DNA of 64,000 bases from Candidatus Aenigmatarchaeota archaeon (GCA_016187335.1 JACPJW010000001.1:853978-917977); one strand, 5' to 3'. Counted from the stretch's first letter, positions 45,058 through 52,906 are shown. The notes: a model not told the origin generated them from the letters alone. Made by a program: numbers and translations.

Positions 45058-45225
45058 GCTGGGTTGGCAGATCGGCTATCTGCAAAGACCGTCGGAAAAA
45101 CGGTTGCGGATAACGCAAACCGAAGATGTGCCCGCCTGCAGAAACCCTTTTGCACATGTAAACGTGCAAAAGCGTTTACGGAAAGCAGCGAGCGGGATAG
45201 GGGGGTTCGACTCCCTCACCCAGCT
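45058..45225 (+). tRNA. tRNA-Cys(GCA) with two introns (non-canonical intron near position 26/27 and canonical 37/38 intron)
   Basis: Acceptor GCTGGGT/ACCCAGC (7/7 bp) and D-arm GCAG-ATCGGCTAT-CTGC (45067-45083). Exon 2 CCCGC-CTGCAG (45131-45141) gives the anticodon loop C-T-GCA-G. Exon 3 from 45191 (A38, then GCGGG pairing CCCGC), variable loop ATAG, T-arm GGGGG-TTCGACT-CCCTC, discriminator T. Introns about 45084-45130 and 45142-45190. The 5' half resembles known archaeal tRNA-Cys (GCCAGGGTGGCAGA...GGCTAT). Confidence 0.6.
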
Positions 45226-51984: not shown

Positions 51985-52650
51985 TTACGAAGCCGGCACG
52001 TCCCGGTAAAGAATGTCCAGGGCATCGGTGATTTCCGGCGTGATTTCCTGCGAATAAGCGTTGAACGGGAACATCACGCTGTGGGAATTGTCGTTGTGGG
52101 CGAAGCCCATTACGTGCCCTATCTCGTGCATTATCTGGACAAGGTTCTCGGCGCCCCCGAAAGTGGGCTCCAGTTTCATTTCTCCTCCCGTTATCAGGCT
52201 GTAGTCGTCATACTGGTATCCGAACGGCCTTGCCTCGCCTATCGTGTCGCTTGTCAGGTTCGTGACGAGCTTTATGGTTATCCCGTCCTCCGGTTTCTGG
52301 GATGCCTGCACGAACATTACCCTTCCTTTCGTGGCGTTTTCCCACCTGTCAAACGCTGTCCTTACGTTCCTCATCGTCAGCTCGTACTTGTATTCGTTGA
52401 TTTCCGTGTCGTTGTACACGTAGTAAGGCATCGGCGATTTCACTATCGGGAACTTAACGAGAAGCGGGTGCTTTATTTCCGTTGCCGGCGGCTTGTAGTT
52501 CTCGTAGTCAAAGCCTTTGCTGGTTTCAAGGTTTTTGTTCTGGACGGCCTTCTCGTAGCCGTATGTTCCCTGCGTTCCCTGCGAGACGCATGCCGAAGCG
52601 AGCACGGCAAGAATTAACGCAAGCGCAGATAAGTTCCTGAAAAGTTTCAT
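51985..52650 (-). CDS. secreted metzincin-type zinc metalloprotease (matrixin/archaemetzincin-like)
   Basis: Signal peptide, then HEIGHVMGFAHNDNSHSVMFP (HExxHxxGxxH plus Met-turn). Confidence 0.75.
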   Translation of the reverse strand: MKLFRNLSALALILAVLASACVSQGTQGTYGYEKAVQNKNLETSKGFDYENYKPPATEIKHPLLVKFPIVKSPMPYYVYNDTEINEYKYELTMRNVRTAFDRWENATKGRVMFVQASQKPEDGITIKLVTNLTSDTIGEARPFGYQYDDYSLITGGEMKLEPTFGGAENLVQIMHEIGHVMGFAHNDNSHSVMFPFNAYSQEITPEITDALDILYRDVPAS

Positions 52651-52714
52651 AATAACAAATGCTGCGGTTAGATTTTAATAAGCAATCACAATAGATTAAT
52701 GAATCGTCTGGATT

Positions 52715-52906
52715 GCGTCTGTAGTCTAAACAACTTTTCTTGGAAAGAAAAATTGTATCAAAAGAATCCAAGAAAGTTGGGATAACGGTTAGGACCTCAG
52801 CCTTCCATGAAAGGCTGTCAGAAGAAAATTTTAGAAAGAAGTTTTTGACCAAACTTTTTTCTAAAAAGTTTGGCTGATGATCCGGGTTCGAATCCCGGCG
52901 GACGCA
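52715..52906 (+). tRNA. tRNA-Gly(UCC) with two introns (D-loop intron and canonical 37/38 intron)
   Basis: Acceptor GCGTCTG/CGGACGC, TA, D-stem GTCT (52724-52727) pairing GGAC (52792-52795), and D-loop AAAC[intron about 52732-52785]CGGTTA. C26, anticodon stem TCAGC (52797-52801), loop C-T-TCC-A (52802-52807), intron 52808-52871, G38, stem GCTGA (52873-52877), variable TGAT, T-arm CCGGG-TTCGAAT-CCCGG, discriminator A. Matches the archaeal tRNA-Gly pattern GTAGTCTA..GGTTAGGAC...CTTCCA. Confidence 0.75.

What the first reader, a model, noticed from the sequence alone, without database searches (positions are those of the whole stretch)
52715..52906. tRNA-Gly(UCC) interrupted by two introns, one in the D-loop
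The mature sequence can only be assembled by removing a segment of about 54 nt inside the D-loop (about 52732-52785) and a 64-nt intron at the canonical 37/38 site (52808-52871). All stems then pair canonically (acceptor 7 bp, D 4 bp including a U-G pair, anticodon TCAGC/GCTGA, T CCGGG/CCCGG). The loop reads C-U-UCC-A-G. The anticodon intron contains a perfect 11-bp B-type hairpin (ccaaacttttt-tct-aaaaagtttgg, 52849-52873). Multi-intron tRNAs are restricted to a few archaeal lineages (Thermoproteales, some DPANN), so this is a useful taxonomic marker.
Basis: partly seen in the sequence, partly recalled or inferred. Interest (0 to 1): 0.6.

Follow-up and report, generated by a model that had tools for sequence, protein, structure and literature searches.

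The report
Three-intron glycine tRNA gene, DPANN archaeon
This is a real glycine tRNA gene of an uncultured Aenigmarchaeota (DPANN) archaeon, broken up by protein-spliced introns, most likely three rather than two; it is a good new example of a known archaeal oddity, not a new kind of element.

Summary
Window 52715-52906 (+) encodes tRNA-Gly(UCC), which ARAGORN and Rfam miss until the inserts are removed. The details need correcting.

- **D-loop intron:** it is 52730-52785 (56 nt, position 15/16), not 52732-52785. It has a bulge-helix-bulge (BHB) motif, and relatives L026, L027, L039 and L043 carry an intron at the same site.
- **"64-nt anticodon intron":** it is best read as two introns, 52808-52826 (37/38) and 52828-52872 (38/39), flanking a one-nucleotide exon, A52827. 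The 38/39 intron borrows part of the 37/38 intron for its helices, so it must be removed first.
- **Mature tRNA:** this reading gives a 72-nt tRNA identical (72/72) to the same three-intron reading of the syntenic orthologue in an Aenigmatarchaeota genome. The loop is CUUCCAA, as in all 11 relatives.
- **Weak points:** the 38/39 motif in the window has only 2 of 4 central pairs. Only three sequences carry the composite. There are no RNA data.
- **Intron turnover:** relatives with the same exons carry introns at 15/16, 29/30, 37/38 and 38/39 in different combinations.
- **Intron family:** the D-loop intron resembles 37/38 introns of tRNA-Gly(CCC) genes elsewhere.

Multi-intron tRNAs, relaxed BHBs and ordered removal of close introns are all published. 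This is a new member of a known kind.

The parts
52715..52906 (+). tRNA-Gly(UCC) gene, 192 nt. The mature product is 72 nt, CCA is not encoded, and the discriminator is A73.
   Evidence: ARAGORN calls tRNA-Gly(tcc) on the spliced sequence. It is 72/72 identical to the spliced orthologue in L032.
52715..52729 (+). Exon 1, tRNA positions 1-15: acceptor 5' strand, U8 A9, D-stem 5' strand GTCT, A14 A15.
52730..52785 (+). Intron 1, 56 nt, position 15/16 in the D loop. Central helix H is GTCT (52724-27) with GGAT (52780-83). 5' bulge is AA|A (52728-30). 3' bulge is AA|C (52784-86). Inner helix h' is 52731-43 with 52768-79. There is no outer helix.
   Evidence: BHB scan: H 4/4, h' 8 bp. The minimum-energy fold shows the same pairing. 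L026, L027, L039 and L043 have an intron at the same site. Only 5 of 5000 shuffles reach H=4 with h' of at least 4.
52786..52807 (+). Exon 2, positions 16-37: rest of the D arm, anticodon-stem 5' strand TCAGC, loop C32 U33, anticodon UCC (52804-52806), A37.
52808..52826 (+). Intron 2a, 19 nt, position 37/38. H is CTTC (52802-05) with GAAG (52821-24). 5' bulge is CA|T. 3' bulge is AA|A (52825-27). The outer helix is the anticodon stem, which only abuts the bulge once intron 2b is gone.
   Evidence: H 4/4 and h 5 bp after in-silico removal of 2b. The block TCAG-GNNG-AAA is invariant in the window, L015 and L032 within otherwise diverged introns.
52827..52827 (+). One-nucleotide exon, A38. By sequence alone it could be any one of A52825-A52828.
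   Evidence: All 11 relatives read CTTCCAA in the loop, 8 of them uninterrupted there. The BHB cut rule places the cuts on either side of this base.
52828..52872 (+). Intron 2b, 45 nt, position 38/39. Outer helix h is GTCAG (52817-21, inside intron 2a) with CTGAT (52874-78). H is AAGA (52822-25) with AGTT (52867-70), only 2 of 4 pairs. 5' bulge is AA|A (52826-28). 3' bulge is TG|G (52871-73). h' is the 16-bp hairpin 52829-44/52851-66.
   Evidence: h 6, H 2/4, h' 16, with 7 nt on each strand between h and h' as in a 3-4-3 BHB. The minimum-energy fold has h and h'. The equivalent intron in L032 has a strict BHB.
52873..52906 (+). Exon 4, positions 39-73: anticodon-stem 3' strand GCTGA, variable loop TGAT, T arm, acceptor 3' strand, A73.
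52849..52873 (+).
   Evidence: A perfect inverted repeat. L015 has the equivalent hairpin with changed closing pairs. The conformer is 6.5 kcal/mol above the minimum-energy fold.
52673..52682 (+). TATA-like box TTTTAATAAG, 33-42 nt upstream of the mature 5' end. This is an inference. The 64-nt intergenic region is shared with a divergent protease gene.
   Evidence: Sequence. Relatives have A/T boxes at a similar distance. Archaeal tRNA promoters 30-49 nt upstream are reported in PMC3218864.

Best explanation
This is a functional archaeal tRNA-Gly(UCC) gene of a Candidatus Aenigmarchaeota (DPANN) genome. It is interrupted by three short protein-spliced introns at positions 15/16, 37/38 and 38/39.

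**Proposed pathway (inferred, not shown).**
1. The roughly 192-nt precursor is transcribed as one piece.
2. The archaeal splicing endonuclease (EndA) cuts after the second base of each 3-nt bulge of a BHB motif, and the RtcB-type ligase joins the exons.
3. Intron 1 (52730-52785) forms its BHB by pairing the D-stem 5' strand with an intronic copy of the D-stem 3' strand. It can be removed independently.
4. Intron 2b (52828-52872) is removed next. Its outer and central helices use the 3' part of intron 2a (GTCAG AAGA) paired with the 3' exon (CTGAT).
5. Only after that ligation does the anticodon stem abut the AAA bulge, completing the BHB of intron 2a (52808-52826).
6. Removing intron 2a leaves A52827 as nucleotide 38. 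CCA is added after transcription.

**Origin.** The introns are gained and lost quickly in this lineage. They belong to intron families shared between tRNA genes and positions.
For: **tRNA identity.** ARAGORN calls tRNA-Gly(tcc) on the spliced sequence. It has C2-G71, G3-C70 and A73, the archaeal/eukaryal glycine identity set as I recall it.

**Orthology.** The window is syntenic with L032, Aenigmatarchaeota JACQIH010000010.1. The 1973-aa neighbour is 68% identical and the 488-aa neighbour 66%. The spliced tRNAs are 72/72 identical while the introns differ.

**Intron presence and absence on near-identical exons.**
- 15/16 only: L026, L027, L039, L043.
- 29/30 only: L038, L042, L044.
- 37/38 only: L011, L040. 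L041 is truncated at its 5' end.
- 29/30 plus the composite: L015, L032.

**BHB scores.**
- Intron 1: H 4/4, h' 8.
- Intron 2a: H 4/4, h 5.
- Intron 2b: h 6, h' 16, with 7/7 spacing.
- L032 2b: h 7, H 4/4, h' 4. L032 2a: h 5, H 4/4.
- The single-intron reading gives H 0/4 in L032.

**Conservation.** TCAG-GNNG-AAA is invariant in the three composite introns. GAAG, GGAG and GGGG all pair with CUUC.

**Folding.** The minimum-energy fold of the whole precursor (-67.5 kcal/mol, z -6.4) contains the intron 1 BHB and the h and h' of intron 2b.

**Shuffle controls.** 5 of 5000 shuffles pass for intron 1 and 20 of 5000 for the composite criteria. The criteria were chosen after the fact.

**Loop.** The loop reads CUUCCAA in all 11 relatives.

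**Literature.** Up to three introns per archaeal tRNA are known, and close introns can need ordered removal (PMC8450103). Relaxed BHBs are cleaved by some EndA types (PMC3239211).
Against: - Intron 2b in the window, and in L015, has only 2 of 4 pairs in the central helix (A-U, A-U, G.G, A.A). The minimum-energy fold uses a shifted 3-bp GAA/UUU register with two 2x2 loops.
- The inner helix of intron 2a is irregular. There is a 2-bp stem with an unpaired A opposite the 5' bulge, or a 2-nt bulge.
- The BHB conformer of the 2a intermediate is 4.3 kcal/mol above its minimum-energy fold.
- In L032 the 2b BHB conformer is 5.7 kcal/mol above the minimum-energy fold.
- Only three sequences carry the composite. 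In L015 the one-intron and two-intron readings give the same mature tRNA, so it does not discriminate.
- No EndA or ligase gene was found among 49 window ORFs scanned.
- There are no RNA data.
- The conserved 11-bp hairpin over the 3' junction has no role in this model.
Confidence: 0.68

Rival explanations
1. There are two introns only: the D-loop intron and one 64-65-nt intron at 37/38 (or 38/39), removed in a single step by an endonuclease with relaxed specificity. The result is a tRNA with G38 (or U38).
For: - ARAGORN accepts the product and reports a 64-nt canonical intron once the D-loop intron is removed.
- In the three-way-junction fold, CUUC/GAAG stacks on the anticodon stem and the 5' site sits in a CA(U) bulge (constrained fold).
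- Some archaeal endonucleases cut sites in loops (PMC3239211).
- For L015 this model also gives A38.
Against: - At the 3' site the central helix has 2 of 4 pairs and there is no inner helix. In the orthologue L032 it has 0 of 4.
- The 3' cut would lie in a 6-nt linker of a multiloop, not in a 3-nt bulge.
- G38 would form a Watson-Crick pair with C32 and shrink the loop. From my own knowledge, G38 is very rare in tRNAs.
- All 11 relatives have A38.
- It does not explain the invariant TCAG-GNNG-AAA block.
Confidence: 0.22
2. This is a decaying pseudogene. A former tRNA-Gly gene was disrupted by insertions that are not spliced, and another gene elsewhere supplies tRNA-Gly(UCC).
For: - No RNA evidence exists.
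- The 2b central helix is imperfect.
- Standard tRNA finders do not see the gene.
- The rest of the genome was not available to check for a second copy.
Against: - The exons are 72/72 identical to those of an orthologue whose neighbouring proteins are only 66-68% identical, while the introns have diverged. That is the pattern of purifying selection on the exons.
- Every insert lies exactly where a BHB-type cut restores the family's mature sequence.
- The second tRNA gene in the window, tRNA-Cys, is built the same way.
- The same gene is identical in two independent assemblies that include it (L001, L002), out of seven assemblies sharing the identical neighbouring protein.
Confidence: 0.06
3. 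This is a split gene read as two transcripts. The A/T-rich hairpin region in 52828-52872 would act as terminator plus promoter. The 5' and 3' parts would be made separately and joined in trans, as in Nanoarchaeum.
For: - The segment is A/T-rich with strong hairpins followed by T runs.
- TCAG/CUGA pairing between the two parts resembles the leader-trailer pairing of split tRNAs.
Against: - The pieces are collinear and only 45 nt apart.
- L032 has a G+C-richer, unrelated sequence at the same place with a strict cis BHB.
- No separate TATA-like box at a suitable distance was evident. This was not tested rigorously.
Confidence: 0.03

Closest known systems
Multi-intron tRNA genes of Thermoproteales (Pyrobaculum, Thermofilum) and of ARMAN-2 / other DPANN
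   Same: [quoted passage not shown]
- Up to three introns per gene.
- Missed by standard tRNA finders.
- Close introns that must be removed in order (PMC8450103).
- Adjacent introns in one loop, as in ARMAN-2 tRNA-Pro at 53/54 and 59/60 (PMC3239211).
   Different: - The lineage is Aenigmarchaeota. It was not among the genomes surveyed in the papers I read.
- The two anticodon-loop introns are separated by a single exon nucleotide.
- The second intron builds its helices from the first intron. I found no description of that exact arrangement, but my search was limited.
- I could not verify whether position 15/16 has been reported before.
tRNA intron transposition in Thermoproteales (Fujishima et al. 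2010, as summarised in PMC4090602)
   Same: - Similar intron sequences occur in different tRNA genes and at different positions.
- Window intron 1 (15/16, Gly-UCC) matches the 37/38 introns of tRNA-Gly(CCC) in L029 and L010. Identity is 32 of 37 over the first 37 nt, z about 10 and 8, with 0 of 500 shuffles as good.
   Different: - It is seen here among DPANN-type genomes.
- The shared module is a pyrimidine/purine hairpin CTTTTCTT...AAGAAAAG followed by TATCAAAAGAA.
- The mechanism and direction of transfer are unknown.
Canonical archaeal 37/38 tRNA intron with strict hBHBh' motif (3-4-3)
   Same: - Intron 2a after removal of 2b: anticodon stem as outer helix, positions 32-35 as central helix, cuts after the second base of each bulge.
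- The second intron of the window's tRNA-Cys (45142-45190) is a textbook case, with h 5 and H 4/4.
   Different: - In the precursor as transcribed, the 3' bulge of 2a is separated from the anticodon stem by the 45-nt intron 2b.
- The inner helix is irregular.
Split and tri-split tRNA genes (Nanoarchaeum equitans, Caldivirga maquilingensis)
   Same: Exon pieces are brought together by complementary non-tRNA sequences that form a BHB. Here, intronic GTCAG pairs with exonic CUGAU.
   Different: All pieces here are collinear within 192 nt and are presumably one transcript.

Membership tests
Archaeal endonuclease-spliced (BHB) tRNA introns | Removing the inserts restores a canonical cloverleaf tRNA. 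| tested here: met
   ARAGORN calls tRNA-Gly(tcc) on the 72-nt product. It is identical to the spliced orthologue and consistent with relatives uninterrupted at each site.
Archaeal endonuclease-spliced (BHB) tRNA introns | Intron 1: two 3-nt bulges separated by a 4-bp helix, with cuts after the second bulge base. | tested here: met
   H is GUCU/GGAU, 4/4 with two G.U pairs. Bulges are AA|A and AA|C. h' is 8 bp or more. The outer helix h is absent, so the motif is relaxed.
Archaeal endonuclease-spliced (BHB) tRNA introns | Intron 2a (37/38): BHB motif. | tested here: met
   After in-silico removal of 2b: h 5 bp, H CUUC/GAAG 4/4, bulges CA|U and AA|A. The inner helix is irregular, and the conformer lies 4.3 kcal/mol above the minimum-energy fold.
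Archaeal endonuclease-spliced (BHB) tRNA introns | Intron 2b (38/39): BHB motif. | tested here: inconclusive
   h 6 bp, h' 16 bp and 7/7-nt spacing as in a 3-4-3 motif, but H has only 2 of 4 pairs. The motif is strict in L032 at the same site.
Archaeal endonuclease-spliced (BHB) tRNA introns | The genome encodes the splicing endonuclease EndA and an RtcB-type ligase. | not testable with these tools
   Neither was found among 49 of about 75 window ORFs scanned against Pfam.
Archaeal endonuclease-spliced (BHB) tRNA introns | A spliced product and excised introns are detectable in RNA. | not testable with these tools
   No transcriptome data are available here.
Multi-intron archaeal tRNA genes (two or three introns) | Two or more independent introns in one tRNA gene, with relatives lacking each of them. 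| tested here: met
   Presence and absence at 15/16, 29/30 and the anticodon loop across 12 genes with near-identical exons.
Self-splicing group I / group II introns in tRNA genes | A ribozyme core of hundreds of nucleotides that matches Rfam intron models. | tested here: not met
   The inserts are 56, 19 and 45 nt. There is no Rfam match even at E up to 10.
Split or permuted tRNA genes | Exon pieces at separate loci or in permuted order. | tested here: not met
   The exons are collinear within 192 nt.

The most novel reading that the evidence does not exclude
The anticodon loop carries two interlocked introns separated by a one-nucleotide exon (A38). The BHB of the outer-acting intron (38/39) is built from the body of the other intron (37/38). 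Splicing order is therefore hard-wired into the RNA, and the precursor must refold between the two rounds.

Together with the D-loop intron, these belong to intron families that move between positions and between tRNA genes across DPANN lineages. That would make Aenigmarchaeota a second hotspot of tRNA intron mobility, independent of Thermoproteales.
Probability: 0.55. Interest if true: 0.5.

Novelty: new member of a known kind. Interest (0 to 1): 0.4.

Why it matters
**Practical.**
- Both tRNA genes in this 64-kb window are invisible to ARAGORN and to Rfam's tRNA model. Genomes of this lineage will therefore look as if they lack tRNAs, which lowers completeness estimates.
- Kaneta et al. 2018 (PMC5829648) already suspected unidentified disrupted tRNA genes in DPANN. 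This locus is a concrete, comparatively supported case.

**Biological.**
- Twelve related genes with identical or near-identical exons carry introns at four sites in different combinations. That makes a clean natural series for studying gain, loss and movement of archaeal tRNA introns.
- The series also bears on how far the splicing endonuclease of this lineage tolerates degenerate BHBs.
- The one-nucleotide exon and forced splicing order, if confirmed by RNA data, would be a neat extreme of a known principle.

Tried and rejected
The central helix does not form: AAGT or AGTT against CUUC or UUCC.
2. **A stand-alone strict BHB for 2b in the window with shifted cuts** (52825-52828 / 52870-52873, worked out by hand). 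None was better than 2 of 4. The general scan of the region is dominated by low-complexity A/T hits.
3. **The 11-bp hairpin as the inner helix of a BHB.** The implied cuts fall at 52847|48 and inside the 3' exon, so it was rejected.
4. **A tRNA-Met reading of CAGCCT-TCCATGA-AGGCTG.** It would put C at position 33, so it was rejected.
5. **More orthologues of the composite intron through synteny.**
   - Homologues of the 488-aa neighbour: none has a tRNA-Gly gene nearby.
   - Homologues of the pirin gene next to L015: the same result.
6. **A viral-contig scan** found only an unrelated interrupted tRNA-like gene.
7. **EndA in the window.** It was not found.
8. **Literature searches for nested or ordered tRNA introns** returned nothing beyond the tRNAscan-SE 2.0 remark. 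Terms containing a slash, such as 15/16, cannot be searched. Sugahara et al. 2007 is not held.

Full report
**1. The observation**

ARAGORN finds no tRNA anywhere in the 64-kb window. Rfam finds nothing at gathering thresholds, and around the locus only chance-level hits plus a 17-nt T-arm match.

Removing only the D-loop segment makes ARAGORN report tRNA-Gly(UCC) with a 64-nt intron. The stems are as stated. So there is a disrupted tRNA-Gly(UCC) gene here.

**2. Where the window comes from**

The window is archaeal. It encodes eIF-6, a proteasome alpha subunit, SBDS, exosome Rrp4/Rrp41/Rrp42, diphthamide synthase, TFS, SRP54 and FtsY.

The 488-aa protein next to the locus is 100% identical to an NCBI protein named as from a Candidatus Aenigmarchaeota archaeon, on a 918-kb contig.

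The window is syntenic with L032, Aenigmatarchaeota JACQIH010000010.1. The 1973-aa protein is 68% identical and the 488-aa protein 66%, and the tRNA gene lies in the corresponding place and orientation. The same locus occurs in several Logan assemblies of one sample series.

**3. Relatives**

I scanned species-representative genomes for the 3' end of the gene, and metagenomes for the 3' exon. This gave 37 loci.

Eleven other loci carry a tRNA-Gly(UCC) gene with the same or nearly the same exons. One more, L041, is truncated at its 5' end. The inserts differ:
- L026, L027, L039, L043: only a D-loop insert, at the same site as the window.
- L038, L042, L044: only a 19-nt insert in the anticodon stem (29/30).
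- L011, L040: only a 37/38 intron.
- L015, L032: the 29/30 insert plus a long anticodon-loop insert.
- The window: the D-loop insert plus a long anticodon-loop insert.

Wherever the loop is uninterrupted it reads CTTCCAA.

This presence and absence on constant exons is the signature of true introns. It also fixes the mature sequence independently of any folding rule.

**4. Intron 1**

The BHB rule places each cut after the second base of a 3-nt bulge, with the two bulges separated by 4 bp. For intron 1 this gives:
- central helix GTCT (52724-27) with GGAT (52780-83);
- bulges AA|A and AA|C;
- an inner helix of 8 or more bp;
- no outer helix.

The intron is therefore 52730-52785 (56 nt), between A15 and C16. 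The mature D arm is GTCTAACGGTTAGGAC, exactly as in L032.

By sequence alone the junction could slide 1-3 nt to the left, because TAA precedes both junctions.

The minimum-energy fold of the whole precursor (-67.5 kcal/mol, z -6.4, 0 of 200 shuffles as stable) contains this pairing. L026, L027, L039 and L043 have the same geometry with a different inner-helix sequence. Only 5 of 5000 shuffles of the intron keep H 4/4 with an inner helix of 4 or more bp.

**5. The anticodon insert**

A single intron 52808-52871 fails the rule at its 3' side. The central helix has 2 of 4 pairs and there is no inner helix. It would also give C32-G38.

Three observations point to two introns.

(a) *The orthologue L032.* The single-intron reading has 0 of 4 central pairs. 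Two strict motifs exist instead:
- a 38/39 intron with outer helix GUCAG/CUGAU, central helix GGGA/UCCC, bulges AA|U and GU|G, and inner helix GAGA/UUUC;
- after its removal, a 37/38 intron with the anticodon stem as outer helix, CUUC/GGGG as central helix, and bulges CA|C and AA|A.

(b) *A conserved block.* TCAG-GNNG-AAA is invariant in the window, L015 and L032 inside otherwise diverged inserts. GAAG, GGAG and GGGG all pair with CUUC.

(c) *The mature sequence.* In the window the same reading gives intron 2b = 52828-52872 and intron 2a = 52808-52826. A52827 is retained as nucleotide 38.
- The mature tRNA is then 72/72 identical to that of L032.
- The loop is CUUCCAA, as in all 11 relatives.

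The outer helix of intron 2b is made from the 3' part of intron 2a. The outer helix of 2a is only adjacent to its bulge once 2b is gone. So 2b must be removed first.

The tRNAscan-SE 2.0 paper states that such ordered removal is needed for some close archaeal introns (PMC8450103).

**6. Weaknesses of the three-intron reading**

- In the window and in L015 the central helix of 2b is A-U, A-U, G.G, A.A. The minimum-energy fold prefers a shifted GAA/UUU register with two 2x2 loops.
- The spacing is still exactly 7 nt on each strand between a 5-6-bp outer helix and a 16-bp inner helix, as in a 3-4-3 motif.
- The BHB conformer of the 2a intermediate lies 4.3 kcal/mol above its minimum-energy fold. 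In that fold CAGCCUU pairs with the intronic AAGGCUG.
- In L032 the 2b BHB conformer lies 5.7 kcal/mol above the minimum-energy fold.
- The composite criteria are met by 20 of 5000 shuffles, and they were chosen after the fact.
- Only three genes carry the composite, and L015 does not discriminate between the two readings.
- Attempts to find more orthologues by synteny failed.
- Some archaeal endonucleases do cut relaxed motifs (PMC3239211; PMC12397907). The enzyme of this genome was not found in the window.

**7.

The hairpin at 52849-52873 is a perfect 11-bp inverted repeat, but it includes G52872 and G52873.
- It competes with the 16-bp hairpin 52829-44/52851-66.
- The conformer containing it is 6.5 kcal/mol less stable.
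- L015 has the equivalent hairpin with different closing pairs, TT/AG instead of CC/GG.
- L032 has a local hairpin that also reaches G39.

A junction-covering hairpin may therefore be maintained, but I have no tested explanation for it.

**8. Intron relationships**

The first 37 nt of window intron 1 match the 37/38 intron of a tRNA-Gly(CCC) gene in L029 at 32 positions (z about 10). They also match the one in L010 (z about 8). In both cases 0 of 500 shuffles score as well. The match to introns at its own site in L026 and L027 is weaker (z 3.3-3.8).

Many introns in these loci begin with a CTTTCTT...AAGAAAG hairpin right after the 5' splice site. This parallels the intron transposition described in Thermoproteales (PMC4090602).

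**9. Comparison with what is known, and verdict**

The following are all published:
- multi-intron archaeal tRNAs, up to three introns;
- non-canonical intron positions;
- relaxed BHBs;
- adjacent introns;
- ordered splicing;
- intron mobility.

Kaneta et al. 2018 explicitly expected undiscovered disrupted tRNA genes in DPANN.

The locus is a real and well-supported new member of this class, in a lineage that the papers I read did not survey. Its particular feature is a likely one-nucleotide exon between two interlocked introns.

- **Confidence:** that it is a BHB-intron-containing tRNA-Gly(UCC) gene, about 0.95; in the three-intron architecture, about 0.68.
- **Interest:** 0.4.

Noticed in passing
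window 45058-45225 (+): A second hidden tRNA gene, tRNA-Cys(GCA) with U73, also missed by ARAGORN and Rfam. It has two introns. The first is at 25/26 (45084-45129, 46 nt): central helix ATCT/AGAT 4/4, bulges GC|A and GT|G, no outer helices. The second is at 37/38 (45142-45190, 49 nt): strict motif, h CCCGC/GCGGG, H CTGC/GCAG. ARAGORN calls the 73-nt spliced product tRNA-Cys.
   Followed up: partly
L043 (Ga0209211_10028676), D-loop intron of tRNA-Gly(UCC): Its 15/16 intron is 118 nt, against 66 nt in L026, L027 and L039. The extra 52 nt sit in the loop of the intron's first hairpin (58 nt replacing 6), which may be an insertion within an intron.
   Followed up: no
L029, L010, L022, L037, L019 (tRNA-Gly(CCC) genes) and window 52731-52767: Introns of different tRNA genes, positions and genomes share a CTTT(T)CTT...AAGAAA(A)G hairpin right after the 5' splice site, often followed by CAAAAGAAA. 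Window intron 1 is 32/37 identical to the start of the L029 intron. The role of this module is unknown.
   Followed up: partly
L010 (JAFCBY010000019.1): A contig labelled Candidatus Falkowbacteria (a bacterial phylum) carries an archaeal-type tRNA-Gly(CCC) with an 87-nt intron at 37/38 of the same intron family. This is probably a mis-binned or mislabelled DPANN contig.
   Followed up: no
L008, L009, L031 (Thorarchaeota): Genes with the same 3' end have long, multiply interrupted bodies that ARAGORN mis-calls or misses. They are likely further multi-intron tRNAs in Asgard archaea.
   Followed up: no
window 52849-52873; L015; L032: In all three composite-intron genes a local hairpin covers the 3' splice site of the 38/39 intron up to G39. 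Its closing pairs differ between the window (CC/GG) and L015 (TT/AG). It is mutually exclusive with the splicing conformer, and it is unexplained.
   Followed up: partly
L055 643-770 (-), IMG/VR contig of 123 kb: A viral contig carries a tRNA-like gene with the same acceptor and T arm (GCGTCTGTAGTGTAATGGCTAGCAC ... GTCCGGGTTCGAATCCCGGCGGACGCA), interrupted by about 70 nt. It was not analysed.
   Followed up: no
window 52526-52852 (-): A 108-aa ORF with a TTG start overlaps the tRNA gene and the end of the protease gene. It is almost certainly not a gene.
   Followed up: no
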